Assembly (NCBI GenBank): GCA_001687465.1
Contig: LVLI01000095.1
Span: forward strand, 1-64,000
Length of the DNA stretch: 64,000 nucleotides
DNA from: Halocafeteria seosinensis
Lineage: Eukaryota
Reading direction: 5' to 3'
Under the pieces are notes generated by a model. That model saw only the letters and a program-made list of their open reading frames with translations, ran no database searches and was not told the origin of the DNA. This document shows positions 15,578-64,000 of the stretch, one piece after another. How positions within the stretch are numbered: the stretch's first letter is position 1; each line of letters opens with the position of its first letter. The position numbers were made by a program, and so were the translations under genes.

Positions 15578-16890
15578 TGTGACAGATAGCCCACCGGCCA
15601 GGGAGTTGACCGCATCCTCTTAACTAGGAGCGGTATGCGCCCGTGTTAAGCAGCGACGGGACCGCTGTTCCTGCAACCTTGCTGACACGCACCGTGAGGG
15701 AACACAACACTGGTTTTGCTCAGGAGGCATCGCGGGAGGAGTCATGCTTGCGCCAACGACGTCACGGGTATCGTCAAGGCTCAGTCTGGGAGGAGAAGGC
15801 CCTGAGCCTGCCACAGCGACGCCAGGGCCGGTTGCAGCAGCGCAGTTAGGATTAAGTGTTGGTCCAGACGCAACAGCTGTGGCCAATGACAAGCCACCAT
15901 CTGACACGGGAGGTGGCGCCCCAGGAGTTCCGTCCATCTCAGTTTCAGCCCAGATTGTAGTACATTTCCTGCTCGAGGTCAAAGAACGTGCGGCTACCCA
16001 AGGTCCTTCTGAAGCCACGAAACCGGTTCCCCCGTCCGTGCTGTCTCTGGGTAGCCCTTCCAGTGGACGAGGATCCGCTTGTCGTGGAGCCTGAAGTCGA
16101 TAAACCTGTCGACATCATCTACCGTGTGCGTAGCTCTAGGCGGCCAGTCTAAGCAAGAAAAATCATTACCCGTTGGGTTGTTTGATGCGGTCTTAGCTAA
16201 GCGATCGGCAGCCGAGTTTGAAGCCCTGCGTATGAACCTAATCTCTGCGCTCCTCACCATTGGGAGGTTCTTAAGGTGGAACCATTCAGTCCGTGCCCTC
16301 TCGAAGAGCGGGCTGAGCTTGTCCTTGCGGCACTGGGCTTCGCCATTCATGTGATCCACCATCGTCTGTGAGTCGCACTCCATGAGGACGTCCACCGGGG
16401 CTGGTAACTCACTTGGGGATGCGTCAAGCGCATCGAAGACCAGTTTCAATCCCAGCAACAGGCCTTCGTATTCGGCTTCATTGTTAGTCTTGTGTGGCCC
16501 TACGTAGTGGCTTGAGAGGCCTAGCTGGAGTTTAGTACCAGCTGGCTCAACCCTGTAGCATACAGCCCCAGCTCCCGCGTGCCCCGGGGTTGCCTGGGGT
16601 TAACCGGGATATCAGTTTGATGTTGATGCCGAGGCGGTTGAGGCGCTGCTTGCGCCACGTTGGCGTTAATGTTCCCCGTTATCGGAGGATTCTTGAGGCC
16701 CTCTATCTGGGTGGTGAAGTCGTGAAATGATCCGCAAAAGGCGTCCACCATTTTGCACTGGCACTTGACCAGCGTAACCCCAAGATGGCCGGACGAGTTT
16801 TCTACCAGTATAAAACCCCACCACAGTCCCGACCACAGGGCAGGGTTTCCCGACTTGGTAGCCTACGGTCGTTTCCTTCAAAGTGCGTGT
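15578..16890 (-). mobile_element. 5'-truncated, frameshifted retroelement: putative RLE tail, archaeal-type RNase H, chromodomain and structured 3' UTR
   Basis: GNPG/HAGAG...TNNEAEYEGLLLGL...CDSQ...IRRASNSAADRLA (RNase HI, aRH type) and VDRFIDFR..KRILVHWKGYPETARTGEP (chromodomain). Upstream HLGVTLVKCQCKMVDAF resembles the RLE tail at 15027. Confidence 0.75.
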
Positions 16891-39704: not shown

Positions 39705-41386
39705 TTAGTTTCGATCGGTAGCTTTCGAGTCCAATGTACTGAGAACGATGGCGAAAGCTTGGAGTGGGGTTAATGGATATCGGAAGTCTAGGGTAAACTT
39801 ATCTCGATCCAACCTACCAAACTGGAGAGCAATGATATGATCATTTCGACGGGATAACCGGAAATTCTTTACACTCCCTCTGCTCCTACGGTCTTCAAAG
39901 TGAAGTACATATGCGCCTAGATTGTCGTCCCAAACAGGAACTTCGTTCCGTAGTATATCAAAGGATGAGCTACCCTCCGTTTCCAGTTTGGACATGATAC
40001 TTTCGCTCTCCGAGCGTGGGCGAATTACGCTTGGCACACCGGCCTTACTAACTTTGGGAAGGACAACATCGCGGATGACCGCTTGTCTAACATGTTTCCC
40101 GACGTTATAGCGAACAACACCCAACTCTTTTCGCAGACAGGAAAAAGATACCGTGTCTTCCGGACTAATCCCTTCATTGTACACTGTGTAGTGGAACCCT
40201 CCCTGCACGAAACCACGCACGGGAAATAGCAACCGGAGGGAATTTCGTGTAACTTCCGGGTCAACTCACCCAATCACCTCGGACTTTTCCGACATTCAGC
40301 GGGTTTCCTCGTTCTGTAGGTGTCGTATCTAGAGTGATCAAGTAATTTGAAGTCTTACTCGCAACTCGTTTCTGCATCCAGTAAAATTGAAATTCCAAGC
40401 AGTTGCAACTCTCAATGGTAAATTCCCGGTCATGACCACACCATGAGCTACGCACCCGAGTGCACATTAGATATTGTCCGTCTTTCTCAAGATACAAATA
40501 GTATGTCGGAGCTCCAAAAAAATGGCGTTTTCGTGTCATTACACACTGCAAGAAAAGGACCATCCCCTAAAATATACTAACAACACAAAGGGAAGCACAC
40601 CGCACGTACCCGTGTGAGTTCGCGTTCTCCCACCGGCTGATTTACAAACGATTTCAAGGACTCCACTGTCTCTTTATTGTGCCTTGCTCTTTGAATGTTA
40701 CTAGACGGTGAACTTGCACTTTCTGGACTCTGGTGAGCGATTTTCACTGCTCGGTCAAACTCATCGGCACTATCCGAGGCAGTCAATGGTGGCGTCGATG
40801 CTGAGCTTGTCGGAGAACTACCAGCAGTAGGAGACTGTTGCACTCGTACTTTCACTGGACGATGACTCTGCTGTATACTTGCCTCTTCCCTCTCGCCGTT
40901 GCTACTCGCCTGGTCCTCCATTGCTTCCTCAAACACGCTCGCAACCAGATCGTCCTCGTCAGAACCATCTTCTTCCATTTGTACTGTTTGCACGGCTAGC
41001 TTCCGATTCGTTCGCTGTTGCTTATGATACTCCTCGACGTTGCTCTTTGCACGACTCATTTGGTTCGTCTTTAGCTCGCTTGCCTTTGTAGCTGCTATGT
41101 AAAGAGACGGCTCAGAACTGGTCGCAAGTCCATGGCTGCGACGGACTGCAGTGAGGGCATTGCCCGATTCCCCTCTGTATATCCTCGAAGAATACCTTGC
41201 TGTTGCATCCACGTCTCTTTCCCCATCGTCCGAATCGGAACCGAGCTGATCCTCCTCTAGCTCTGCAACCATGGAATCCACAACGTCCCACTCGAGGTGA
41301 TCCATGCTGCTGTTTGCTGGAACTTTGTTTGCCACCAGCGGGGAGGAAATATGTTCTTCAGGCGTCCCCTCTATCTCCCCAATCAA
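39705..41386 (-). CDS. Tubby-domain protein (paralog 1); first exon not located
   Basis: YYLYLE, KTSNYLI, GKVRG, N..PVWDD....YVLHF, SVKNF, LQFGR and FTLDFRYPL..LQAF motifs. Confidence 0.88.
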
Positions 41387-41722
41387 CTGCAGATGATAAA
41401 ATTAAGGCCACAACCTGATTGCCAGAAGCAGGAGGAGGAATTTTGAATACAATCCCACCGTGGGCGACTTAACTAACACTTCTCATTGAAGTTCTCAAAT
41501 CTGTAAGCAACCCTCAACATGCTTCAAGGCCACGTGGCATGGCCCATGTGAGGGCACTATGATGCGGCCCTTGGGGGAAATTTCAAATAGGGTAAGCACC
41601 GCGGACCCACACAAGACCAAGATAGCCCCTGCCCTGAGCATGATGATGGAGTGGTGCGCGGCGTATAAAGTGTACACTTTGTTCTCTCTGGCGGCTACAG
41701 ACGGCTCCGGTAGCGCGAACAA

Positions 41723-43260: not shown

Positions 43261-45806
43261 ATGACAATTACTAGAGGGGTCTTACTAAGCATTTTATTTG
43301 TCGGTTGCTTTGGAGTCTACTGGTTCACAGGAAAAGCAGATAATGCCGTATCTTCAGAAGACTTAGAACGTGGACGTTCCCAACACAGGTCTCCCAGAGC
43401 CTCTCCGGAGTCCACTCAAAATCCTAAAAAATGTGGTTCCACCTCTGTTCCCTTATCATCACCTTCACTAATTGGCGATATTATAGTAGCTTTAGGTGAT
43501 GTCAGAGATTCTGTGCTGGTTCATGACCTTATGCCCCGGGGGCAACCAGAGACCAGGGAGCGCGTTGTAAGTAGCCTTATCGGAAGGAAGGCTATGCATT
43601 TGCTGTTGCTTAGAAGTGCATCTTCGTTCTCTATTGAAGACCCAAAGAACGAGAGTATCCGTGTCATACCAGAATCTGTTATTCGTATTCGGGAAAGGCT
43701 CACTGGGGAGCATACACGCATAGTACGTTCTCCGAGAGTGGGGGCAAGTTTGGAATACTTAGAACGCCATGGGTACAATATTAGTTTAGGATCTCAGAAA
43801 GGAGCCGTACTTGGGCTTGCTCAGGGGGCTCTCATCAGGCCATTGAAACGGCAGAAACGACATCGTTCGACAATGCGCTGTTTGTGGCCCAGCAAGTTGC
43901 CGCTGATACATCGCTTTTGCTTGTAAATGACATTGCAAGCATCGTTCAAAAAGGTGGACTCTTGCAGGAAGTGATACATGCAACCATGGAACGTACAATG
44001 CATGAGCTCTTACTGATGTTTCCACGGCCATGCTCGTCACTGTTGGTAGAGAGGGCAGCCAAAGCGCTGACAGTACACAAGATAGCGGGATGGAGATGGC
44101 ACACGGTAGGAAATGTATATACGGACTCATCAGGGGTACTTATGTTTACAAAAGAACCTTGGAGGTATGCATTTGGTATTAACAGTGGTAACTTTGTTAA
44201 GTTTCAGAATCCTGTCGGGCTTCCTGAAGGCGTCAATACTAATTCTACGTTTTTTCTTACGCATACTAGGGAGCGCCTCCCCGAATGCATTGCCATTCAC
44301 CGAAAATGTGCATCAAGGATTCTTGAATGTCCATTCCAGCGAATGGAATTTCCAACTTCGGGGGAACCGCGACTTTCTCTGGGTATAGCGCCTAGCCTAA
44401 CTCATCATTTGCTGTCTCAGACGCGAGGAAACAACCATGGCATACTTGGCGACACGAAATACTCCCCTATAGTTGATATTGTCAGAAACTATCGTGCGTT
44501 GGGAAAATGGTTAGATCCAGACTTTAATTCAAGATGGAAAATGGCAAATCCTTCATGGCTGAACAGCACAGCATGGGGCACTGTACTATCAGCGGTTTAT
44601 TCACGAAATAGCACCATCATCGGCCCGGTAGGCAGGGTTCAGCTTATCCAAAACACTCCAGACTTCGTCTTCAATGGATATTTTACTGGGTTTAGTGTCT
44701 TGTCCATATTTGGGGTACTTCCTATAGCGATGTTTTTCCAGTTCACGAACCCTGTGATGGATTTGCTTCTGCAATACGGAATACCTTCCGTTTGGGAAAC
44801 TGCAGGTACTTCACCTTTAGCACAGTCGAACCCTGTTAGTGCTTATTTCTTCACACATGCCAGAAATTTCAAGGGACACGAAGCAGGCCGTTTTCACCCC
44901 TACATAGCCTGGAACGTCGAATACAACGCCGCCTACATGGGTGCGCCGCATACACGGGAGTATTTCGCAAATGCTACCCTTATACTAGAGTACAGCAAAG
45001 CAAATTTTTTCAGGTACTACGAAGCCAGAGATACTCTTCCGCTGTACTTCCCGATGTGCTACTACAGCAGAACCATGAGGCCCTTCCTGCCGCCAATGGT
45101 GCAAGACATCCAAAGTGCACCCACACTTAGCCAATCTAAGGGCAGTGTTCTTTGCGCCCAGATTTTCGGCTGCTCTAAAACGAAACATTGCAGAAGACGA
45201 AAGCAAATTTTGGACAACATCAGAAACATTCTGAAGCATGGGCATAGGAAGGATCCGGCCAGCACCAAGGGTTTGAGACCGAAGGAAGCAGACATGTTAA
45301 GGGAAACAAGACGTATTCTCGCTGACTCTCCACGACTACGGGTAGCCGTTGGCCAGCGAACTTACGGCATCAAATTGCGTGAATACATGAGAGAAGCACC
45401 GTTTGTACTGAACATCCATTCGACCCTTCCCCCCGGTGGCGCATCTTTAGAGATTTCACGGTTGACCCAAGCGATATCTCTCGGTGTCGCAGAAGTTATC
45501 TCCGAAAGAGGCACGGAATACGATCGAACAATCGAAGACCAGATTTCCGGCCCCGGCATGACTTTCCTAGACACTAAAGGCAGAACTGAGTTTGAAATAG
45601 CTGTGCAATTTGCTCACCACATTGCAACTAATTGCGATGTCGGTTCCAGACTCGAGTCACTTGAGCGTGCGCGCTCTGTGGCTCATAGGATCCAGAACAC
45701 TTCCTTGGCATGCGAACACAATCGGAACGTGATATCCTCTGTCAATAGGTTGGTTAAGTTCCTTCCTGCATGGTATTACTGGCTTCAAGACACAGAGGGA
45801 CATTGA
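43261..45806 (+). CDS. Type II membrane protein with a C-terminal glycosyltransferase-like (GT-B) region; probable intron 43723-43784
   Basis: N-terminal TM. A gtacgt...attag intron joins ORFs 43198 and 43884 in phase. Motif FVLNIH...LEISRL..AISLG..VISERG. Confidence 0.6.
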
Positions 45807-46778: not shown

Positions 46779-49700
46779 ATGTCGAAGTTCTTTGAGTCCT
46801 CCATGGCGTCAGGGGAATCCGCCCTGGAGAAGGTGGATGTAAGTGCACCGACTTCACTGTTGTCTGCCGGCACATTGGACACCGTTGAGGCCGGACAGTC
46901 TACTATATTTGGGCTCGAAAACATTTGCATTTCATGTCTTACTGTCTTCGGATAAATGCAGGCCCCCAAAGTCTACAAGCAAAGTCGGCAGGCGATCGGT
47001 GCCGCCTTTGCGGCGGCAGCAGGTCTTGGTGGAGCTGCCATGAATCTGTTGAAACTGGATGTGATACGAGACTTTGCCCAGAATGTGGCGCTTTTCTTTG
47101 CGGGGATTGCCAGTGAAGGTCTGGAATTGGCGAAGAAAACGTTTGGACGCATTTTCGGGCTTATTTCGATTGACCTGAACATGGTGTATGATGGTATCAA
47201 CCCATTCCACATCATCGTGCTCCTGGCGGTTCTTGGCGTGATAATGGTCGGAGTCTTGATAGCGTTCTACTTCATGACGCGCAAAATGAACCCAGATGAG
47301 ATTCGGCAGGTAAGGAGGAAGCAAGGTAGTAAAGAACTTTTAAGAATTGCACTACTCCTTTCCTTGCTACGTTAAGTCCAGGGTCACGAAGTAGTGAAAT
47401 GGGATGACCGAAAAGAAGACGAGAGCAAGAGGGTCATGTTCATTAAGTACAGCTTGCTAGCTGCAACAACTCTCTATCTGCCCGTTTCCAGAGCTTTGGC
47501 ACAAGCAGTTCGATGTGGCCCTACCATGATTCGAGTATGTCGGTATCTGCGATTCAGCCTGTTAATACCTCTTTACCCTGCTGTCTCTTGCTTGTACAGA
47601 TACTTGTCGAAAAGGATTTCTTGGAAATTGAAGAAGTCATCAATTCAACTTTAGGATGCAGAAACCTGACGATTGCTTTGAACGATGGAGCAACTGATGC
47701 AGATATCATTAATAACGAGGGAAAGGGGAAAGACGTCAGCTTTTCAGACTGCGATTGTGCCGATTGGGGTAAGACAATTTACTGGATAATTACACTCTTT
47801 GCGAAAACCAACTTAGGAAAGTCGTCTGTAACGTCGGTGAATTGTTGATACAGAGAATTACTCATCGGTTCGTCTCATAGCCATTGTAATCATTATCCTG
47901 TTTACGATTGGCTTTCCGATATACTGCGTGTGGCTCATTCGTGAGAACAAGCCGTACGGCAGCCGTGAAGACCCCGACAAGTGCTACGATGAGGAAGGCG
48001 AGCTCGTTGAGTATACTGACGATCGGTAAGCTTAACCATGCGCCTTCGTATTCTACCGATAACTTTCTTACCCAGGGAATTGCAGGTATCAGGATGATTT
48101 GAAGAACAGCCCGAATCAGCTCAGCTGCCCCTACTTGACGTTGTACGTATTCTCAGCGAGCGGGCTTCTCACATTGACACATTACAGTATTTGCTTGCCT
48201 TTCACGATGGGTGTACCTGGTAAACAGATACGATGGATTTGAACGGAAGTGGTCATTTTATAAGGTTTGGGTAATGGCAACGAAATTCCTACTGGTGATG
48301 CCCGGCATCCTATGGTATGAAAGCCCTGTTGGCCAGTCTGTAGTGAGCGCCCTTATCCTGGGAATTCTTGGAGGACTGTCCTTCTACTCAACCCCATTTC
48401 TGGACCCTACTGGTACGGTATTTTGCTATGGCGTTATGAATCGTCCATTTTGTTGAGAATTAAATTGTTCATTCTCAGATGATGTACTAGACGCTTCTGG
48501 TCGACTCACGAGTTTTGCCACAGTGTTGTTCGCTCTGTTCGCAAGTTTAGGAGGTGCCAGTGCTTTTTCCGCTCTTGTCATGTTGGCCAACTCTGTGAAT
48601 GCTATTGTTATGCTATTGTCGACTCTTTGGGGCTTCGCTGCCGTCCGCTCGTTTGTGAAGGGTATAACAGGGCAACTACAATTCAGCGACAGCGTGAAAA
48701 AAGTAGTCGGCCCTGCTAAACGGATCATTCCTCGCTGGGATATCTCCTCAGAACTGAAAAGGCGGATATGGCATCCGTTTTGGGAAGCTGTGCTCCTGGA
48801 GGAAGGTGAAATCTATGCCAAGCGGCTAACCGACATGCAAGGCAAAGCTAGGGATGTTGGCAAGCATCGTATACTGCAGCATTGGAAAAACGGAGCTAAT
48901 GAAGAAATGAATGAAGCCAGACAACGTCTCATGGAGGAGTACGAAGGTGTAGATGTGTACTATGGTGGTGTAAGTCTAGTTCTCATGTTTACATATTTAT
49001 AATTACCGTTCTCTAAGCTACATAAATGCTACAGGAAACTCATGACGGAGAGCTAAACAGTAAGACGTTTTTCGGCAAGATGTATATTGTAGCCTACCCG
49101 TTTCACGCGGTTATGGTATACGACGATAGCGATGACTACACATTTATTTGGGAAGGTAAGTGAATCATATTGCTCTCTCTCGATGTGAAGAGCAAGCAAT
49201 GACATAGCCTAATTGCGCAGACCGAACAAAAGAATTGCTTGAGCAAAACGATGATGAAGAAATTCAACGGAGACGGAATGTTCGCGAAAAGCTACGAGGC
49301 CTCTGTGCCCCTGATCTTGGTCCAGGTCCAGAACTGACCTACCACCTCGAGAGATGGGAACAGCACCAAGTACCCGACGGAACGGAAGAATATAAGGACG
49401 CGGAAGGCAATACGCAAACCCGGACAAAGTATGCGACAGTGGATGTGTTTATGACGTACTCCAAGGGTAACGTGTCTATCGGCATGAATTCCGATCTGCC
49501 GATGCAAGCTGGGTTCAAGTTTGGGTTGAACCTCACGGACGGGCATGGTGTGGCAACAGCACCGTCTACTGGCGAAGAGCATACCATCCACAACTCGATT
49601 ACTCTTGGGAGGGACGACATTGGTATCGACGACAAGTATGTATGCCTCGTTTGCATAGTCAGTGAATCACAAGCATATATACATTTAAGTATCCATTGCG

Positions 49701-50775
49701 ATGCAGCTTCAATGAGTGCGAAGCGTTGCAACAGCTATTTGAGAATGAACCGAATAACGAAATTTGGCCCGAAGGCCTTGAGCGATGGCAGAAAAAGAGC
49801 CAAGATTACCGACACGGTTTAATAAAGTGGCGTGTGGAGGAAGAGAGCACACTCAGCTCAGCCTTTTGGTTGCACGTGTACGACAATGACACAGCAACCA
49901 GAGAGGAGATAGAAGCGTATTTCAGGAATTTTGAAGCGCGTGAGAAGGTGAAACAAATTCCGGACCGTCACAAAGAAGGCTTGGACTACATCATGAACAA
50001 AATGAATTGGGTAAATCAACACCCGTGTGCTGCGATTTGGTAAGTGTGTCACACCAAGGATCATGCTAGTGTTCAATAAGGCAACTACTGCAATTAATTT
50101 CCGCTGGAACAGGTATGTGTTCTTTGATGATTTGTGGGAGACTAATAACGAGGTTGGAATGATCGCCGATTTGCAAAAGGACCTTGATCCATCGTAAGTT
50201 TCGGGGTCTCGAGTTGATACTGCCGCTATTGAGTGTAGGTTTACATCCTCTGTGCAGTGAGGAAGGGTCTATAGCTTTCCGGCCAATGAAACGAGAGAAA
50301 TTGGAAGAATGGTTAGATGAGAGGGGTCTGAGAGCGTCATATCGTTGGATAACCCCAGCCATTCTTGATCTATTGTTTGACTTGGTATGTATTTCTGGAA
50401 AATGAATGCTGCTCTTGTGGTGTACTTCATTGAACGCGGTCTGAAGTACAGATGGAGAAGACGGATGAAGATTACAGCAAGTTTGATGCGGAGCTGCAAG
50501 AAATGCAAGAAGAAGAGGGTGAAGACGAAGCAGCGAAAAAGGAAGCCTCCAAGGCTCAGAGCCAATTTAGTTCTGGTGTCAGATGCGCCTACGCTGTGCG
50601 TCGCAACACCGCTCAGAACCGAGTCGTCCATAGTAGTCTTGGTGCTATGAAAGAGGGAAAGGTGACAAACATGGCAAATTATGCTGGGGGAGCATACATC
50701 CCCAAGGATGTCGAAGGTGAGCAACATGAGAACCCTCTGAAGCAACAGGAAGAGGAGGAGGAAGAAGAAGAGTAG
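46779..50775 (+). CDS. Multipass membrane protein of unknown function, many exons
   Basis: Consecutive GT-AG-linked ORFs with about 7 hydrophobic helices (e.g. YDGFERKWSFYKVWVMATKFLLV) and a long acidic soluble C-terminus. Confidence 0.7.
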
Positions 50776-51067: not shown

Positions 51068-51486
51068 AAGCATGTCTACCGCATAGTGTTTCTCTTCAAG
51101 AGCAGCATACTACTTGAGAGAAAAGGAGTTACACGGGGAAAAGGTCAAGGTACCCTCTTTTTGTACTGCCATATGGTACAACCCCGTGTATGTATATGTA
51201 CGTGGAAGAATCCAAGTGCACGCGGCTGCCAAGCAGACGCACGTGCGGTCGGTCGCACGGTTGTAGAACACAAGAGACTGTGGGTGAATAGTTTGTCACT
51301 ATCGATTATGTTTGATACCATAAATATGGAAAATTTACGCGGTTGCTGGGTGGGGAGGTTTTCATTCGTCATTTTTCTTTTGGAGTGTACTCGTCGCTTG
51401 AATATATAGTCTACAGGTGCGATTTTTTTTTGTTTCTTGGCTTCTGAAACCCTTGCAAGAGACAGCGCGTTGCACGGGGAGCCATA

Positions 51487-52893
51487 ATGCAACCAGATAA
51501 CGATGTCGTCAAGTCGATGATGGCCGAGTTGGAGGAGGAGGAGAAAGAAGAGGGTAAAGATGCACCGAAAGAAAATAGCCCGTCGCAAGCGAAATACACC
51601 TACTATTCCGGCGCGGCGGACTCATTTGGCGCGTTGCAGCACGTGAGAGCCTCGGCCACCGCCGCCCACGCCTCGTCCAGTACTGTCAACTCGAACATAG
51701 GCTCCCGAGAGAAGTCCCACAGCTATACAGCACCCCGGGACGACATGGAGGAAGAGAGCTCCGAGGATGACAGCAGTAATTTGGGAGCAGAGACCTTCGC
51801 CAAAGGGATCCGGGTACAACACCACAGTGGAAGTGGACGGCACTCGTCAGGGTATCTGGCGGAGAGCATTGTCGGCGGCGGTGCAGCGCACGGCTTGCGC
51901 GCGAAAGAGGAAGCTGAGTCGGTACGCAGTTTTGTGCATCAGCCGGGGGAGAAGGGGCGTTTTACAATGGTATGTCGTTTCAGAAGTGTGAACGTGAACA
52001 ATCGACACCCAGACAGGGCAGCTTCTTGCTCTGTGTGAATATGCAGTGTTATATAATAAGGAAAAAGCATTTGGTGGGAAACCCGACGTATTATGTCTAC
52101 TTGGAGAAGGATGACCAGTACCTCATGTGCGCTCAAGTAAGGTACAGACATGGATCGGAAATACCGCGGTTGAAGTACATACCCGTTATGTTATGTTCAG
52201 AAACGCAAGAGGAATAAAACTGCTAATTATCTTATTACGCTCGACAAAGAACCTGGGAATCGCGATAACCCGTTGAATTTGGGCAAGGTTCGAGGAAGCT
52301 GGGTACGTAGAGTACATAGCATCGCTAGCAGTGTGTGAGTATTCATGGGTGGAAACGATCCACAGACGGGAGAACATTATACCATCTACGATCAAGGGCT
52401 GAGTTTTGAAGACACTGTTTCTGCCACCTCTCTAAGAAGGGAACTAGGTTTAGTCCGCTTCTCGTATTCCAATACCGGCCCGGGTAGGCTTAGTGTCTTC
52501 CTCCCGAAAGTTTCGGATCTTGGCCATCCTACAGTGATTCGTCCCCAAGAAGAGAAGGAAACGATAGCTAATCGGATACTAACTGAAGGGGAGCCGAACT
52601 TTGAGGTATTGCATAACAAAGAACCTCACTGGGAGGAAAAACTGGGCTCTTACGTGTTGAACTTTCGAAATCGTGTCAAGAGGAGTAGTATCAAGAATTT
52701 CCAGCTGGCTCAAAAGGGTGATGACAAAGTTGTCTTACAGTTTGGAAGAGCTGATAGTAACAGATTCATCATGGATTATCGACATCCTTTAAGTGCGTTT
52801 CAAGCATTGTCTATTGTGTTGAGTACTTTAGATACCAAGATAGCCGACACCGCGGCTTACACGAAGTTCCGTGAGAAGCGGCGTTCTGCGTAG
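51487..52893 (+). CDS. Tubby-domain protein (paralog 2), multi-exon
   Basis: YYVYLE, KTANYLI, NKEPHWEE..GSYVLNFRNRV..SSIKNFQL, LQFGR and FIMDYRHPLSAFQA motifs. The start is uncertain. Confidence 0.9.
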
Positions 52894-54613: not shown

Positions 54614-56067
54614 TTACTCCAGTGGCTCAACGAAATTGCCGGGAAATACACCCTTCTTTTCCCGTTCATCGTGTCCCTCGTACCAACCATCATCATGCTT
54701 CTTAGTGACGTAGAGCTTTTCCCCAACGAGCAACTCAAGTTCGTCTGCATTTTGAGGCTTGTAAGGATGCTTGACACGTACCGTCTCAATCGATGGAGCC
54801 GGGACGTAGACGGAGCTTGGAGTACTAGACGCTTGGCCTTGGGTGCCCCGATCTGGTGCATCGGGCGCTTGGGGGCGTTCTTGGGCTTCTGCTTGCGCCT
54901 TTGCTTCTCTTTCCTCGTGGGCGTTACGAGTTTCGGATGCACTTCGTACACGCACAGGCTTGGCATCTTTGTTGAAATGGGGCACTTCTTTGACGGCATC
55001 AAGTCCCGAGCCGAATAGTTGTTTCTGGAGCTCCAAAAACTGTATGCCCCGAAGCAATCCTGGTGACGAACAAACAATCATACTCCAGAGATAAAGAAAA
55101 ATTACGCATACCTTGTTTAATTGTGGAGTGATGACTGAAAAGCGTTTGCTTTCTACGAGGTCGAAATCGTTGTACAGTTTTTGGGTGGCTTCGTCTAGAG
55201 TTTGCTTGGCTTTCTCCTTGGCGGCTTCTTTCTCCTCCAATTTGTGGGGATTATTGGATCCTCCTTTTTCTTTCAACTTAGCCACTTCTCGAACATAGGA
55301 ATCGTAGTCAAGTTTCAGGTATTCGCGATGTTGCATCTGCTTGCTCTGCTCTTCCAGATGTCGATTAATGTTCTGCAATGGATCCAGGATTTTGGCGACG
55401 TATTGCTCATCAAAGAGCCGGCGAATTTCATCATCGAGACCTTTCATGTTGTCCTTGAGAACATCGGCTGATTTCTTTAGATCTTCGGGACAGTCGTTGT
55501 CATCATAATGGCTTTCCACCATCTCACCGATCTGAGAACTGGCGAAGCAAAGTGCTGCAATTACGATGTATGCGTCCATTCACTCATCTATTCTCTTTCT
55601 TTCTCTGATAGCGTGACAATTACGTACACCGAATGGCATCCAGATATTTACGGAACTTCTTCTCCATATCCGCATAGTGTTTGCGCAGTGCCACAATCCG
55701 CCGTTTGCGCTCTTCATACTCGGAATCATCCGTGGCGTACTCATTGTTGCCAAATTTACTCCGGACCTGCTGGCCCAATCGGCGCGTCACATTACTGAAT
55801 CGAGTACCGAAACTTTCTCCTTTCTGCGAATGAGAAAAAGGCGTCATTAAGCTCAATAGAATGAAAAACCACCCCAAAAAGAGCACCACTCGTTCAACTT
55901 GAACCCACTCAAAGCACTCTTTTGGGCGTTTCTAAGGGAACAAACGAGGTACGTACAGCTTCTTCACCTTCGTCAGAGGTACCATGGCCACCTGCAGCGG
56001 CGCCAGAGGACTCTCCTGACTTGGCAATGGTGCCAAATGAAGATAGCTTCTGCTTGAAGTTCTGCAT
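54614..56067 (-). CDS. BAR-SH3 protein (amphiphysin/endophilin/Rvs167-like), multi-exon
   Basis: Helical BAR region (TDDSEYEE, KLDYDS) and a C-terminal SH3 (HPYKPQNADELEL..DGWYEG..GVFPGNFV). Confidence 0.88.
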
Positions 56068-56642
56068 CCTGGGACTTTGGTGGATTGTACAAGCACACTT
56101 AACTATTGTATTCGCAAGTAGGATAGATTCGTAGTCGACGTCGTTTATGTATGTTAGTACAGAACAACCTCTGTGTTTATGTATGAACTGTGTGGCATGA
56201 ACCATGATGGATGCATCCTGGATGCTAAGATACCATCGACACGACAAACAATTGTTGGACTTGAGGTTTCGGACGAAATTCGGAGGTGGGAAGTTCCAAT
56301 CGGGTGGACAAGAACTTTTGCCATGCCACAGGGATAATGGCCACAGGAAAGGTACAGGGTTTCACGGTTTACGGCCAGAGCCGACAACGAGTTGAGGTCG
56401 GATACTGAATATACTACACTGATTCATCCGGAAATGTGCTACAACGTTGTGCATATTACAGCTACAATTTATAATTGTAATACAACGTACGGAAGAGTGT
56501 GATTTAGATTCGTGTGTTCTCGATTGTTTGGCAAAAATTCTGGCTTAATACACAATTTGTCAGCTACTTCGTATGTCGAGGGAGCTGCTGTGTGCTATCT
56601 CACTGGTACAAGTTAGTAGGCTCACGTGAATCTATTTCGGAG

Positions 56643-59600
56643 TCACCGCTCGCCATTCATCAGTTCGGCCATTACCTTGTCATCTTCATCAGACATCATT
56701 TCGAGGTCTTCGCCGGTGAGCAGTTCACTATTCTCTTGTCGTAGTGTTGTACCAAGAGTATCATCTCCAGAGTCACTAGATGCCTCCACTCGTCCAGCGT
56801 AAGGCTCATGTTTTCGTTCGATAAGTCTCTGTAACGCTCTTAGACGTTCTTCGCGATCCCATAGTATGTCAAAAGAGTCCATTCGGACCTGCCCCAAGAG
56901 TGCTCCAACAGAAACGCCGTCGGAAGCAAAACGGCATGCAAACGGGGCTCCACCACCATTAGCTTCTCGTTCTTCCTCTCCTTTGCGAAACGCCTTCAGA
57001 AAGCGCGGAAAATTGTCTCGTTGCAGAAGTAAGAAGATCTCACTTTGTGAGTCATTGAACATCTGGATGTACCCTGAGCACGAGTCAGGGACGTTGGCGT
57101 TGTCGTCCAAAGGTGATTCTGCGCGAAGAGTCTCGACATCCTCCATCAGTTTCCGGTATACAGTGGAAGACAAATTCACCATACAGGGAGAATCCTTCAA
57201 AACATATGTTTGCAATATATCCTCCATCATGCTGATCATCCAACCGAGGTTCCCCTTGCTCGCCGCTAGGATTGCTTCCCTCTTGTAATGCTCAATTGCT
57301 TGATAAAATTGCAGGTTTTCTAAGGCATGCTCATGCTCCAGATGGACACGGAACGCGTTCAATAAGAACGGATGAGCAAGAATGACCGAGAGAGTAATCT
57401 CAGTAGAAGGGGGAGGTGGCGCCACCAAGAACAAGAAGGAGGAAAGAAGTGGAATTTCACCATATCCTAAAACTTGCCCTCGCCTCGACTGTAGGGTGAC
57501 TAGTAGGTCTTGCTGGCCCAACCAATCCGGATCTAGAGCAATCGGCTGAAGATCAGGTAGGTCCTCTTCAAACCACTTTACTAGGCGTCGAGACGCGTCT
57601 GGGTATGTGTTATAATTACGAGGCTGAGAGGATTCGATAGTCGGTAAGTACGGCGCTGTGAAAACTAGTTGCACTGATTCGCCGGCAGGAACGAGCGAGC
57701 GCATGGTGGAACTTCCTGAGTCCGCCCGAGCAACATTAGAACCCAATCCAACTAACGACGCCCAAAGTTGCTCGGAACTCAATACTTTATCTACCAGCAG
57801 TGCGTGCTGTAACGTCACAGTTATTGAGCCTCGATTTCTCAACTTTGTCGTCCTAGGCACATAATAGAAAGGACGTTCACACTCAACTTCGAAGGACGCA
57901 AGTACCGGCCTGTGGTCGCTCAAATTGACCTCTTTTGACGCTCGATACTCAGTATTTCTCACCTTCCTGGTTGACGAGGGGGAGGATCGGTACAGTACTC
58001 GGTCTGTGTATGACGCATTTTGGTTCTTCTTATTCTGAAACGACACGCCTTTTCCACGCTCCAAGCGGTAGGTTGGCGGAAACTGGATTTCAGGCTCAGA
58101 AAATCCGGAAAAATATCCTAGACGCATTTGCTGGCGAAGTTGGTCCGATTTTACGAGAGGACCGTAGTGTTTGGACTCTGCCCATTTCTTCACCTTTTCG
58201 AACTCTCCAGGAGTACCCGGTTTGCCCAGGTCAACACGATAGTTCAAATCTCCCATGAAAAAAATGTGGTCATAAGAATGAATTAGCGGTATATAGCCAA
58301 CGGAACATGACTGACCCTTTCGCGGATAACCGCGTGCTCCAATGTTTAGCGCCTGGATTATAGTCGCATAATCTTGATTCCGTTCAGCAAGCCGTTCGTG
58401 ACGAGCAGCGAGGTGAGCCGAAACAAATGCAAAAGAAGTTGAGTCTCGGTATGTGAATCCAACGGCTACAGCACCTTTATTGCCAAGTACATTTGCAACA
58501 CCTGTAGCAACAGTGTCAACGCTTATGTTCCCTAGATTCTTTGCGACTACGTTTCTGGCGTATAAGAATAAATGAATCCCCCACAATGTAATTTGAGCAA
58601 CAGTGACGTAGTCCTCCGTTGCTTCAGCATTCCGCGGACTCGATGACGCTTGCAGAACTCCTCTGATGCTCTTCAGCCAATCATCCTTGTGATCGCATTC
58701 CTGTAATGCAACGGCGTACAGGTCATATTCCTGCGGAGGAATCCATTCACTAAGTACATGTGTGTCGTAAGTAGGTTTCGAGCCACCACAATTGAACGTG
58801 CCGCACCAGATGCGAAGGGAATCTGGTGGAGGAGCAGCATTTACTATCCCATATGCTCGGACGGAAGAAAAGTCCAACTTGTTCATTACTGCATGTAAAA
58901 GACCACGAAAGGTTGATCGCAGCGATGCCGTGGGGAACTCAATATCCAGAAAGAAACGATCATCGATGTTTTCCGTTTCCTCCTCTGCTGTGTGTGTTGG
59001 AGAGGTGCTGCTGGCGTTGCGTATTACAGGTTTAACTGAATCCTTGAAAAACAGCTTTAAGCGCTCTAACTCGTTACAGGAGGTTTCGATTCTTACATTC
59101 CCCTTGGAGAGGGAGTACTCTTCAACCTGTTTTGCATCATTGAAGTCTTTCTGCCTTTTCAATACTTGCTGCTGCGGATCAATTGTCAAGACGCGCCGTG
59201 CGGACGCCATCCCGTAAGTATGAATCTGTACTTTGAAGGAAACGGCTTCTCCTCCCAAGTCTTCCTTAAAGACGTCGTCCATGAAAACCATGTCTGATTG
59301 CAACAGGTGTGCCAGTAAACAGAAGTTCTCTCGCGCGGACTCTGTGTCAAATTTCAGCGACACCACTCTTTCGTTGGTAGGATTCCGGAAGCACACTCTC
59401 AATACACGGTGGCCCATTTCGGCAACTCGTTGCATGTACTCGATGTCTAACAAATTCTTAGCAAACGAAAGCACCTCCGACTTATAGACTAGTAATTCGC
59501 GCGAATTGATGTTGAAACACAGTTCTCGCGATTGCCATTTGCCAACTCTGTTCTGCTTTAACACGTTAAATCGAGGGGAGTACCACAGTCTCTGCTTCAT

Positions 59601-62600
59601 CGGTTCAGGAGAAGATGACTTGTTAAGGTGTTTTGTATTGTTGCGCAGAAATCGTCGAAACATCGCAGATTGCCGGAAATCGTCTACTTCCAAATTAAGT
59701 TCTGTTCCCTGCAGAAACTCCTCAAAAAGATCCTCGAAGAGTCTGGAGGAAAGTGATGTCTCATTCGCTCTAAACCTCGTCTCATTACCATGTTGGCGCG
59801 CATCAATGTCATTCCCAGCCTCGAGGAAGTGTTGTACAGCATTCGTCAAAGCATAAATCGTCTTGACGGACACAAACGGAGCAAGTTTGGAGCCTGCAAA
59901 AAGATAGCTTTCTTTGAAGTTAAGAAGCTCATTTCGCAATGTATCATCCATCTGCGCTGACGTCAAGCTTTCAAGCAATTTCGTAGACGAGCCTGATACC
60001 AGCGATAATGTGTTCTTGGAAGCTATCCGATCCCAAAAACATTCAAGCAGCGTCTCAAGCTCAGTTCCAAAGCGATACAGCAAGTCAATAGTGTCAGTCG
60101 TCTTGCTTGAGTGGCTCTTGAACGCATCACGGAAGTCCTGGTGCTTGACAAGCTTATACACAGGAGCATCTTCTCCCAATATGGTCAGCTCAAATACATG
60201 CAATAACTCTTCTTTTTGCGCAAACACCTCTTTGATATCTTGTCTTCTGAATGCGATGGTAGTTGCTCCGCTCATGGTCGTTTCTAGGTCGAATCCTACC
60301 GCACGCGGTTTACTACTTGCAAGAACTTCATAGTTTATGCAATCACCACTTGCGTACTTCTTGGTTACAAGTTTTCCGGAAGGACCAGTTTGGGTCATTT
60401 TGATCGTTCCTTGGGTAATAACGTAGCAGTTGCCGTCGTATGTACCGCTTCGCACAAGTACAGAGTTGGATGCATGTTGCGCAAAGCGGCCGTACTTTGA
60501 TAGATCCGAAAGAACGTCTTCAGAAAGGTTTGCTAGTACCTCTACTTGAAGACCGCGAATGCTACTTGCAGCATGAGATGCTATATAGTCTTGTAAGGAT
60601 GCCCTTAAGCCTGGGGTACCGTTCAATAGAGCACTAAAGTGTCGACGGTGTTGCACAAGTAGTAAGCATTCTTGTGTAGCCGAGACAGACGCGGACACAG
60701 GTACTTCTTTGAACAAAGATATTTCCCCAAAATACTCGCCCGATCTTCCTGCAGCAATGCAACTACAAATAAAGCCATCACGCACATCGATTTGTGACCA
60801 GACGCTGTACTCACCTGTCTTCAACTTCCTACCATGCTCTGTGAAACGTACTTCTCCATGAACAAGAATGAAAAATGCATCGCCGGGCGTATCCTCGATC
60901 AGCAAGCTCTCCCTTGAATATCGCGTGACGACGCGGAACGTGTTTGCGATACTCTTCAGCTTGTCTTCGTGAAGACGTTGGAAAAAATTCACGCTTCGGA
61001 GGAACAACATAGTGAGGGAATGTGAACACTCCAAGAGAAACTTCCTCCTGAGGAGTAACCATTTATCGCCAAAGGTATGTTTAACGCTGTTGATACTCAA
61101 AAATAGCACTTGGCTTCCTGGAAACACAGCCAAGGAACAATAACGATAGTTAAGATCCATTCTTCAAAATTGCAAATTTTTTCTTACTTGTTTTTGCTGT
61201 CGCCCGAATTTGGCTTTTGAAGTATTCGTGTGATATAAGAGCTTCGTCGTGAATAATTTCACCGAACTGTAAAAAGATAGTCCGTGGATATACAAAATAT
61301 CAGTAACAATGGAGAGGAAGCTAAGTAAGCGTACCGAAAGATCATAGGAGGACTTGTTTGCATCCTCGATAGCAATGGTACCCTCGACAGGAAGGATAAC
61401 GGATTCAATGAGGTTTCCCTGCATGGACAAGTAGGACAAGCGAAACGGCATGTGAGTCATGGGAATCAATACGGCTATAATTTTCAAGAAGCGCGTACTG
61501 GATAGGTGATCTCCGACCCCGGAGAGACATTTACCATGGTAACACACTGCATCACCAGAGAATGTTCCTGGGGAGAAGCATCCCAAAACATCCGGAAATT
61601 CTGCGGTAGTTTAGGAGATCTGAAGCATTGAACAATACTCTTGCTTTTCAGTTTTTCGTCTCGTATTATAGAAAATCCTGTTTGTCGGTCGAGGTAAGCC
61701 TCCGCTTGTTCGTAGGCTGACGACGCAGTATTGGGGACACCACTGCTCTCCGGAGAGTTTGACTTCCTGCCTCCGTTTCTCGTTGCAGCTTCCTCAGTTC
61801 TGGGGGTTGTTGTCTGTTCTTTTGAGAGTTCCTCTTCGTCTTCACCTCCTGAAAGATCATCCGAGCATATCGAGGAATTGATTCGAACCATTTGTCCGAC
61901 TTTCTTCTTGGTAACGGCGGCAGTTCTGGGATTGACGATGATTTTCTTTCGCTGTGGAGAGGATGTCTTGGCACCTTGCTGAGCAAATTGCGATTGATTC
62001 GATGGGGTGGAGATGACATCACTTTGCTGCTGCATGTCAGTCGGCGAGGCGGTCCCATACGTTCTTGAGTGTGTTTGTAGCGGAGAGGAATGCTCCGTTC
62101 GTTGTTGTTGGTAACTTCCAGCTCCACTGGTGCTACGGCTACGGCTGTCCTTTCTTCGAGTTCCTGGCGCATACTGTAGATCTTGATAAGTGTCACTCGA
62201 ATGCGCTGTCGGAGTGCTGTCATCGTCATAAAATTGGTCTGTGTCATGTCCTTCCCCTTCCGCAACACTTCCACTCTCGGATGCGCTCGAGATATAGTCG
62301 CTCGGGTGCTCCCAGGTGCTCACATTAGTCCGTATATTGTACCAGTAGGGTATCCCCTGTGTATCATCGATGGCTTTGACCCATTCAGGGTTCTTCCACG
62401 TCGATACATTGGTGAGTGGATTGTGCCAAAAGGGTCTCTGGCTATTCTCATCGAAATACTGCTCCCACGGCCATTCAGCATGCTTCACCGCCTCGGGGTC
62501 CACGCCCTCGGGGACCTCCCAGGAGCATTCACCTGTGACTGTATTGTACCAGAAATAGTCGCCTGTGGCAGCATCCTGCAATGGACGCCACTCCGCCGCG

Positions 62601-62626
62601 GCGGGGGCTGAGGGACTGTTGTCCAT
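56643..62626 (-). CDS. Multidomain inositol polyphosphate 5-phosphatase: WW x3, cNMP-binding x2-3, degenerate RGS-like, PH-like, 5-phosphatase, C2 with inserted RGS; multi-exon
   Basis: WW repeats (W...YWYN..T..STWE.P); GDAFFILVHG...GEYFGEISL (cNMP); GTFNCG, GNKGAVAV, FVSAHLAA, FFMGDLNYR, SYTDRVL and SDHRPV (5-phosphatase); EHALENLQFY...VNLS...RDNFPRFL (RGS). Confidence 0.88.
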
Positions 62627-63194: not shown

Positions 63195-64000
63195 TCAGAA
63201 GCAGCGACTCCGGAGCACTTTGAGTTTTGACTCCCATTCTTCTTTGTTCAAATAGCATCCAGCAAGTATACGACCACTTGTGGTACTAAACGCGCTACGA
63301 CCGTGAAGGATTCGACGGTTGTTGAACATTAACAACGTTCCTGAGTCACCAAGAGAAGCAGGCGTGCACACAGGAGGCAGGTACTGCTTATTCAAACAGT
63401 TGACACACTTACCAGGCAACAGTGGAAACCAAAGAGTGTTTTTCCCTGAGCGAATCACGCTCAAAAGATGTTTGAGATGGGTGTAGAACTCCAATACTCG
63501 GGAAGCATCCTCGCCTGCGTACCGAAACGACTATAGAACCTTGCGGGAGAAAGTGTTGCTTTGGTTCAAAACATACCCGGAAAAGGAATGATAGGGGAAC
63601 GATCATCATTATTAAATGCAAAGTCGATTACTTCTCCGTTATCGTCCGTTTGGATTATCTGTACCCCTCAAAACATTCCTTGTAAGCTATCAGCAGCTCC
63701 TATTGAAAAGTATGTATACATACACGTTTCCATTGAAGCAAAGAATAGCCAGGGTCTTTAAAATGAAAAGGAATAGGGCGCGAGGCAAAATACTCAAACG
63801 TATCAGGGTAACACTCTCTGAGCGTTGCCGCCACCTGGAACCCGTCTACAAGCAAAGTCTTTCCTCCTCCATCAGGGTCTGCTTTAAGGCAATGGAATGC
63901 TTGTAGACCTGGAGTATCTTCCAAATAAGTATTATCCGTATGAGCCGCCAGAGCTCGTGCTGAATACGCAGTATCGTTGGGGTCTGGCAGAACTTCCGTT
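63195..64000 (-). CDS. Trimethyllysine/gamma-butyrobetaine dioxygenase-like (TauD/2OG-Fe) protein; 5' part lies outside the window
   Basis: LAAHTDNTY (HxD), PGLQAFHC, GGKTLLVDGF, NNRRILHGRSAF and R.LAGCY motifs. Confidence 0.85.

What the first reader, a model, noticed from the sequence alone, without database searches (positions are those of the whole stretch)
56643..62626. Signal-integrating lipid phosphatase: WW-cNMP-RGS-PH-5-phosphatase-C2-RGS fusion
One gene appears to join three WW domains (about 62300-62590), two or three cyclic-nucleotide-binding domains (about 60250-61600), a degenerate RGS-like region, PH-like domains, an intact inositol 5-phosphatase (GDLNYR, YTDRVL, SDHRPV; about 57880-58820) and a canonical RGS domain. 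The motifs are seen directly. I know of no characterised 5-phosphatase carrying both cNMP-binding and RGS domains. My inference is a single-chain node coupling cAMP/cGMP and G-alpha signalling to phosphoinositide turnover, similar in spirit to the GPCR-PIPK and GPCR-INPP fusions of oomycetes.
Basis: partly seen in the sequence, partly recalled or inferred. Interest (0 to 1): 0.85.

Follow-up and report, generated by a model that had tools for sequence, protein, structure and literature searches.

The report
G-protein off-switch built into lipid phosphatase
This eukaryotic gene, spliced into one message, encodes a SHIP-like membrane-lipid phosphatase with a G-protein off-switch (RGS) domain predicted to sit inside its C2 domain, so it likely ties G-protein signals directly to lipid-signal removal, while its three cyclic-nucleotide domains lack key pocket residues and likely do not sense cAMP.

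Summary
The fusion is real. Five exons (four GT-AG introns) give one 1899-aa protein; a transcript-derived database protein matches 1897/1899 residues and one run contig spans the gene with all four introns removed. Order: 3 WW, linker, 3 CNB, decayed RGS, 2 PH, inositol 5-phosphatase with intact catalytic residues, SHIP-type C2. New point: the canonical RGS does not follow the C2; it is inserted inside it, before the last two strands, in 13 of 13 RGS-bearing sequences checked, and keeps its GAP-interface residues. About ten clusters share the design; the named ones are Cafeteria and Cantina (Opalozoa, stramenopiles). My paper searches found no description. Best reading: a phosphatase that binds activated G-alpha, is recruited or stimulated by it, and switches it off. 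No activity, G-alpha partner or coupling was shown. New variant of a known kind; interest 0.62.

The parts
56643..62626 (-). Whole coding region, five exons, 1899 aa; transcript contig reaches 62651 and 56500
61419..61498 (-). Intron 1 (80 nt, GT-AG)
   Evidence: skipped in X2 and X3
61267..61334 (-). Intron 2 (68 nt, GT-AG)
   Evidence: skipped in X2 and X3
61118..61187 (-). Intron 3 (70 nt, GT-AG)
   Evidence: skipped in X2, X3, X4
60749..60814 (-). Intron 4 (66 nt, in frame, no stop; inside CNB2)
   Evidence: skipped in X2, X3, X4
62297..62605 (-). Three WW domains (aa 8-110)
   Evidence: Pfam WW x3
61625..62296 (-). Low-complexity Ser/Thr/Gln/acidic linker (aa 111-334)
   Evidence: sequence; not conserved
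61044..61624 (-). CNB1 (aa 335-455, over exons 1-4); cassette decayed
   Evidence: (HH 98% to CNB2)
60573..61025 (-). CNB2 (aa 462-590); Gly539-Glu540 kept, Arg replaced by Val549; best-conserved CNB
   Evidence: (Z 20.4 to PKG II CNB-B)
60177..60557 (-). CNB3 (aa 596-722); Pro679-Arg680 kept, Gly-Glu replaced by Asn670-Tyr671
59628..60176 (-). Decayed RGS-like helical domain (aa 723-905), no GAP motifs
   Evidence: profile match to the family's canonical RGS, HH 94%, E 1e-7; all-helical in model; no Pfam RGS hit on its own
59289..59585 (-). PH1 (aa 920-1018) with conserved basic strand 1-2 residues Arg932, Arg939
   Evidence: Z 13.4-13.5 to TAPP1 and Bcr PH
58884..59243 (-). PH2, PH-like (aa 1034-1153)
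   Evidence: HH 94.6% to PH1; tandem-PH match to centaurin alpha-1, Z 13.4, rmsd 10.8
57882..58820 (-). Inositol polyphosphate 5-phosphatase (aa 1175-1487): N1184, E1215, N1288, K1289, H1310, D1365, Y1425, R1429, D1447, R1448, H1477
57450..57827 (-). SHIP-type C2, first part (aa 1506-1631); lipid loop 3 basic instead of acidic
56973..57401 (-). Canonical RGS inserted in the C2 (aa about 1648-1790): E1671, H1672, E1675, N1676, N1723, L1772, D1776, R1780
   Evidence: (Z 16.3, rmsd 1.6 to RGS8)
56871..56948 (-). Last two C2 strands, after the RGS (aa 1799-1824)
56643..56870 (-). C-terminal helix and acidic tail

Best explanation
This is one spliced gene for a SHIP-like inositol 5-phosphatase with an RGS domain predicted to be inserted inside its C2 domain, which likely binds activated G-alpha so that the G protein would recruit or stimulate the lipid phosphatase while being switched off by it. 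Shown: one reading frame, domain order, catalytic and GAP-interface residues present, and the split of the C2 sequence around the RGS. Inferred: PH1, C2 and the phosphatase dock on anionic membrane; G-alpha-GTP binds the RGS, which by C2 topology leaves the sandwich at the end away from the lipid loops; binding raises dwell time and may act through the C2-phosphatase interface that tunes activity in SHIP2; the enzyme removes the 5-phosphate of PI(4,5)P2 or PI(3,4,5)P3; GTP hydrolysis ends the pulse. The front module (3 CNB + RGS) looks like a captured CNB-RGS protein whose RGS and cAMP pockets have decayed here into a scaffold or brake; WW domains would bind proline-rich partners.
For: One ORF. 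Best solved relatives are SHIP2/SHIP1 phosphatase-C2 (E 4e-43); SHIP2 residues named as catalytic or substrate-binding in PMC5550278 (D607, H718, N540/K541, Y661, R665, R691) have matches. Model aa 891-1841 (pLDDT 70, pTM 0.58) aligns SHIP1 397-856 over model 280-935 (Z 33.9, rmsd 2.5, 422 of 460) while RGS8 aligns at 760-899 (Z 16.3, rmsd 1.6). Profile alignment puts the C2 part before the RGS at SHIP template 35-118 (98%) and the part after at 122-148 (62%, E 8e-5); strand spacing is 158-467 aa in 13 of 13 RGS-bearing rows against 18 in two RGS-less relatives. All six of E83/E87/N88/N128/D163/R167 are kept in 8 of 12 aligned rows, this protein included; N128, L159, R167 and Y84 are GAP-critical in RGS4 (PMC7895990; N88 and D163 recalled). 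C2 modulates SHIP2 catalysis (PMC5550278). Stand-alone 3xCNB+RGS protein P0296 matches the front module.
Against: No activity, binding or G-alpha partner was shown; no genome is held, so G-alpha in this organism is unchecked. Y84 is His here. Four of 12 rows have lost GAP residues (P0149 N128D; P0148, P0150, P0151 several) yet keep the insert, and P0006/P0145 have Asn for the catalytic Asp, so the two activities can be lost separately. Fusion alone shows co-location, not allostery. The model rests on 8 sequences. Substrate is open: loop L4 is 7 residues shorter than in SHIP2, with Lys1439/Gln1441 at R682/N684.
Confidence: 0.5

Rival explanations
1. Two activities share an address but not a switch: PH and C2 park a constitutive 5-phosphatase and an RGS GAP on the same membrane; G-alpha does not change lipid turnover.
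For: RGS domains combine freely with many partners (PMC3971589); GAP residues and the catalytic Asp are lost in different relatives; loops tolerate RGS inserts, P0149 seems to carry one more inside the phosphatase (weak hit).
Against: The insert sits at the same C2 loop in 13 of 13 rows, in a domain that tunes SHIP catalysis; binding a lipid-anchored G-alpha would at least recruit the enzyme.
Confidence: 0.25
2. One reading: cAMP or cGMP binds a CNB domain of this protein and, with G-alpha, sets phosphatase output.
For: Three well-folded CNB domains (pLDDT 81; Z 20); CNB3 keeps Pro-Arg at the canonical distance; Cantina P0150 has a canonical CNB1 and P0149 a canonical CNB3, so the ancestor likely bound cyclic nucleotide.
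Against: No cassette here has both Gly-Glu and Arg; CNB2 lacks Arg in 10 of 10 rows; a trypanosome PKA-R mutant with Ala at 202 and Thr at the Arg place showed no cAMP activation (PMC10959531 Table 2); Arg-less CNB folds are reported as cAMP-blind (PMC11550324).
Confidence: 0.15
3. CNB2 is a sensor for another small molecule (a nucleoside or unknown metabolite) that gates the enzyme together with G-alpha.
For: CNB2 is the most conserved domain after the phosphatase (21% of positions kept in at least 6 of 7 rows, against 5% CNB1 and 13% CNB3); ribose-binding Gly-Glu kept in 9 of 9 rows that cover it while Arg is lost in all; precedent for other ligands.
Against: It lacks the second Glu that gives trypanosome PKA-R its nucleoside affinity (Ser542 here); conservation may be structural.
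Confidence: 0.1
4. The fusion is an assembly or gene-calling artefact joining neighbouring genes.
For: The WW/CNB1 part and the long ORF are in different frames on the genome.
Against: Spliced contigs join them in frame; P0001 is complete; the same order occurs in Cafeteria and Cantina.
Confidence: 0.01

Closest known systems
SHIP1/SHIP2 (INPP5D/INPPL1)
   Same: 5-phosphatase packed on a SHIP-type C2, preceded by PH-like domains; best sequence and structure match; groups with SHIP against synaptojanin/OCRL-type rows (100/99).
   Different: No SH2 or SAM by Pfam; short L4 loop with Lys/Gln for R682/N684; lies outside the SHIP clade, in a wider group with Gln at that place; RGS inside the C2; WW, CNB and RGS-like front.
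RGS-bearing effectors such as RGS-RhoGEFs (p115 type) and PLC-beta
   Same: One chain would be both target and GAP of G-alpha (mechanism recalled, no paper read; EhRGS-RhoGEF appears as a fold match).
   Different: Output is a lipid 5-phosphatase; the RGS has canonical RGS4-type interface residues and is nested in a C2.
cNMP_binding-RGS proteins
   Same: 3 CNB followed by RGS, as in P0296; architecture listed in PMC3971589 fig. S6; an Atlas cluster of 336, mostly oomycete, is the top hit (score 0.83, a lead only).
   Different: Here the module is fused to a phosphatase, its RGS has decayed and no cassette is canonical.
Oomycete GPCR-INPP bigrams
   Same: Stramenopile single-chain link between G-protein parts and an inositol phosphatase (PMC5784254, PMC6033456).
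   Different: No 7TM part (no Pfam hit, highest 19-residue hydropathy 1.52); acts at the G-alpha step, not the receptor.
Non-canonical CNB domains (trypanosome PKA-R, PDZ-GEF, KCNH, encapsulin CBD)
   Same: CNB fold without the cassette arginine.
   Different: CNB2 lacks the extra Glu of trypanosome PKA-R; ligand unknown.

Membership tests
Inositol polyphosphate 5-phosphatase | EEP-fold catalytic domain | tested here: met
   Pfam PF22669 209 bits; Z 33, rmsd 2.2-2.8 to SHIP, INPP5B
Inositol polyphosphate 5-phosphatase | Catalytic Asp, His, metal and phosphate residues | tested here: met
Inositol polyphosphate 5-phosphatase | Measured 5-phosphatase activity | not testable with these tools
   needs assay
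SHIP1/2 | SHIP-type C2 packed on the phosphatase | tested here: met
   422 of 460 SHIP1 residues aligned, rmsd 2.5; HH 98%
SHIP1/2 | N-terminal SH2 domain | tested here: not met
   no SH2 hit at E up to 10 on the complete protein; the N-terminus is WW
SHIP1/2 | Long L4 loop with R682 and N684 | tested here: not met
   7 residues shorter, Lys1439/Gln1441
SHIP1/2 | Falls inside the SHIP clade | tested here: not met
   SHIP rows form a 100/99 branch without it
SHIP1/2 | Preference for PI(3,4,5)P3 | not testable with these tools
   needs assay; one class I/II PI3K copy is reported for SAR (PMC4617754), unchecked in this organism
GAP-competent RGS | RGS fold | tested here: met
   Pfam 56 bits; Z 16, rmsd 1.6-1.9 to RGS8, RGS16, RGS4
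GAP-competent RGS | Switch-contact residues (RGS4 E83, E87, N88, N128, L159, D163, R167; Y84) | tested here: met
   all kept, Y84 is His; N88 and D163 numbering recalled
GAP-competent RGS | Accelerates GTP hydrolysis of a G-alpha | not testable with these tools
   no G-alpha sequence or genome at hand
RGS-like domain aa 723-905 as GAP | Switch-contact residues | tested here: not met
   no Glu-Asn, Asn128 or Asp/Arg motif
Canonical cyclic-nucleotide receptor (PKA/PKG/Epac/HCN type) | CNB fold | tested here: met
Canonical cyclic-nucleotide receptor (PKA/PKG/Epac/HCN type) | Cassette with Gly-Glu and Arg in the same domain | tested here: not met
   0 of 3 domains
Canonical cyclic-nucleotide receptor (PKA/PKG/Epac/HCN type) | Measured cAMP/cGMP binding | not testable with these tools
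   needs assay
Trypanosome-type nucleoside-binding CNB | Glu at PKA position 202 | tested here: not met
   Ser542 in CNB2; Ser, Gly or Ala in relatives
GPCR-INPP bigram | N-terminal 7TM receptor | tested here: not met

The most novel reading that the evidence does not exclude
A direct G-alpha effector of a new type: G-alpha-GTP bound to an RGS grafted into the C2 domain drives the C2-phosphatase allosteric path known from SHIP2, giving a self-timing lipid-erasing pulse, and a conserved arginine-less CNB2 adds a second input from a ligand other than cAMP. The family would also show a cAMP sensor being rewired, with the intact pocket at CNB1 in one lineage, CNB3 in another and none here.
Probability: 0.22. 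Interest if true: 0.85.

Novelty: new variant of a known kind. Interest (0 to 1): 0.62.

Why it matters
G-alpha effectors outside animals and fungi are poorly known, and known links from G proteins to phosphoinositides run mainly through phospholipase C and kinases (recalled). A 5-phosphatase carrying its own G-alpha GAP inside the C2 names a testable effector in phagotrophic-type stramenopiles. It is also a natural probe of SHIP allostery: a 150-residue domain is tolerated in one C2 loop. The wider Gln-motif phosphatase group beside SHIP (73 of 150 top hits) bears on where SHIP came from.

Tried and rejected
No whole genome is held, so G-alpha, PI3K, adenylyl cyclase and paralogues in this organism were not checked. 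The metagenome locus scan gave 1 locus of 203 pattern matches, a weak 31% fragment, not used. No RNA holder is listed by record; the spliced joints are the evidence. Fold searches of the front model were filled by CNB rows, so the RGS-like domain was not tested by structure; Pfam alone does not see it or PH2. The Phe-Gly-Glu in CNB1 is not the cassette but the turn before it. The first tree was unfinished and had long branches; replace it. Atlas search of the catalytic half gave C2+phosphatase and SHIP clusters, none with RGS, but covers only clusters of 50 or more. Paper searches with no description of the architecture: (37, 36, 44, 46, 64, 68, 70 were for background). Three wanted papers were not held (PMC3396428, PMC4871593, PMC1142213); the first is a survey of RGS architectures and could mention such a fusion. 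Earlier scan notes: four look-ups, nothing.
Full report
Gene. The window is intron-bearing, gene-dense eukaryotic DNA. The finding lies on the minus strand as a 408-aa frame and a 1506-aa frame with small frames between. Four GT-AG introns of 80, 68, 70 and 66 nt join them into 1899 codons. A transcript-derived database protein, P0001, marked complete, matches this model at 1897 of 1899 positions. Of four public runs laid on the region, X2 has one contig over 56500-62651 skipping all four introns, X3 one to 62256, X4 pieces skipping two, and X1 is unspliced. These runs are one study and not recorded as RNA, so they and P0001 count as one line of evidence; the independent line is the same domain order in other organisms. 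No tool named the organism.

Domains. Pfam finds WW x3, cNMP x3, the 5-phosphatase and RGS, and a weak SHIP C2. Two AlphaFold models cover aa 321-910 (11 rows, pLDDT 81, pTM 0.63) and aa 891-1841 (8 rows, pLDDT 70, pTM 0.58). They show three CNB barrels, a helical domain, two PH folds, the phosphatase and a C2. The helical domain matches the family's canonical RGS by profile (94%, E 1e-7; unrelated control pairs 0.1-0.5%) but has no GAP motifs. PH1 matches TAPP1 and Bcr PH domains (Z 13.4-13.5, rmsd about 2) and keeps two basic residues in strands 1-2.

The RGS is inside the C2. SHIP1 phosphatase-C2 aligns over model residues 280-935 (Z 33.9, rmsd 2.5, 422 of 460) while RGS8 aligns to 760-899 (Z 16.3, rmsd 1.6), so C2 strands lie on both sides of the RGS. 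Without the model, profiles give the same: the part before the RGS aligns to SHIP C2 template 35-118 (98%), the part after to 122-148 (62%, E 8e-5), a tail control 0.03%. The spacing between flanking strand motifs is 158-467 residues in 13 of 13 RGS-bearing rows, 18 in P0007 and P0008, 59 in P0160; the pattern failed on 9 of the 12 RGS-less rows tried. SHIP2's C2 is type II with acidic residues in loop 3 (PMC5550278 section 6); here that loop is basic and the insert comes one strand later, which by topology is the end away from the lipid loops (inference).

Catalytic and GAP residues. The SHIP2 residues described as catalytic or substrate-binding (passages) have matches: D1365, H1477, N1288/K1289, Y1425, R1429, R1448. 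The specificity loop is 7 residues shorter than SHIP2's and has Lys and Gln at R682 and N684, so substrate cannot be called. The RGS keeps the equivalents of RGS4 E83, E87, N88, N128, L159, D163, R167, with His at Y84 (roles from PMC7895990 passages; N88 and D163 recalled). Eight of 12 aligned rows keep all six polar positions; P0149 has N128D; P0148, P0150, P0151 have lost several. P0006 and P0145 have Asn at the catalytic Asp.

Cyclic-nucleotide pockets. Against the cassette consensus (PMC2246266 Table 1 and passages), no domain of this protein has both Gly-Glu and Arg. CNB2 lacks Arg in 10 of 10 rows and keeps Gly-Glu in 9 of 9 that cover it, and is the best-conserved non-catalytic domain. 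A trypanosome PKA-R mutant of similar cassette type was not activated by cAMP (PMC10959531 Table 2 and passages); PMC11550324 (passages) and PMC12422582 (passages) treat Arg-less domains as non-binders. Against my reading: CNB3 keeps Pro-Arg at the right distance, Cantina's CNB1 and P0149's CNB3 are canonical, and P0289's CNB3 is Epac-like, so the family has or had cAMP input, and weak binding here is not excluded.

Family. The word-indexed search gave 117 hits, 5 with RGS and phosphatase together. The full scan of 1.84 billion representatives gave 7235 hits at E 0.001, of which I saw the best 150. My own profiles on all 150 found RGS in 9 and CNB in 7; Pfam on 35 of the 150 added P0150 and put P0148 and P0151 below the curated cut-off. 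The ten RGS-bearing rows are ranks 1-10. Named members are Cafeteria (KAA0176847.1) and Cantina marsupialis, both Opalozoa; the rest are unnamed, so the range is not fixed. In a 44-row phosphatase tree, 10 of 11 fusion rows form one branch (96/93), Cantina groups with RGS-less rows (98/92), SHIP rows form their own branch (100/99), and both lie on one side against eight synaptojanin, OCRL and fungal rows (100/99) (one search agrees in outline). One origin of all 11 is not rejected (p-AU 0.13) and not shown. Left out: P0145 (near copy of P0006), P0147 (part of P0289), Cafeteria strain copies and most other hits. A stand-alone 3xCNB+RGS protein, P0296, was 1 of 7 hits among shorter proteins and matches the front module, suggesting that module was captured whole (inference).

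Mechanism. Most likely the enzyme docks on anionic membrane, binds activated G-alpha through the C2-borne RGS, is thereby recruited or stimulated, removes a 5-phosphate from a phosphoinositide and ends the signal by GAP action (0.5). Rivals: shared address without coupling (0.25), true cAMP input (0.15), other ligand at CNB2 (0.1). None of these steps was measured.

Novelty. Searches found no paper on this architecture (listings and abstract starts seen). The RGS architecture list in PMC3971589 (passages; supplement file 3 part 2 of 2 read, files searched for phosphatase terms, file 1 not searchable) has cNMP-RGS and C2-RGS but no phosphatase-RGS; the species list I saw held no opalozoan. GPCR-INPP papers (passages) describe a receptor fusion. 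PMC9694693 and PMC4617754 (passages) give background: a single G-alpha in Phytophthora, one class I/II PI3K in SAR. The library lacks most subscription papers, three wanted papers were not held, and databases already carry automatic names for relatives. Verdict: new variant of a known kind, interest 0.62.

Noticed in passing
P0149 aa about 1120-1225: A further RGS-like helical stretch appears inserted within the phosphatase domain, giving up to three RGS-type domains in one chain (weak profile hit).
   Followed up: partly
P0006 and P0145, catalytic motif: Asn replaces the catalytic Asp while the RGS keeps its GAP residues: possible pseudophosphatase branch.
   Followed up: partly
P0150 (Cantina): Mirror image of the window's protein: canonical CNB1 cassette but decayed inserted RGS.
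   Followed up: partly
one search hits P0152-P0184, P0011: The Gln-motif SHIP-side phosphatases carry many other partners: myosin head + villin headpiece, LIM x7-8, PX, SH3, coatomer-appendage domains.
   Followed up: no
P0296: Stand-alone 3xCNB+RGS protein with one canonical cassette; its species label (a chytrid) was not checked.
   Followed up: partly
window 54614-56080 (-): Next gene downstream on the same strand is a BAR+SH3 protein, a membrane-trafficking type; adjacency may be chance.
   Followed up: no
window 51448-52893 (+) and 39705-41401 (-): Two Tubby-family genes, a phosphoinositide-binding family (binding recalled).
   Followed up: no
window 63195-64000 (-): TauD-family dioxygenase upstream, cut by the window end.
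   Followed up: no
window 15994-16599 (-): GC-rich stretch with an RNase H-like RVT_3 domain, possibly a retroelement remnant.
   Followed up: no
window 43785-45806 (+), 48457-49822 (+): Long frames (673, 181, 204 aa) without a Pfam hit at E 0.01.
   Followed up: no
window 56888, 58352, 62414, 62462: Single-base differences between runs and window; two match the two residue differences to P0001, likely alleles.
   Followed up: partly
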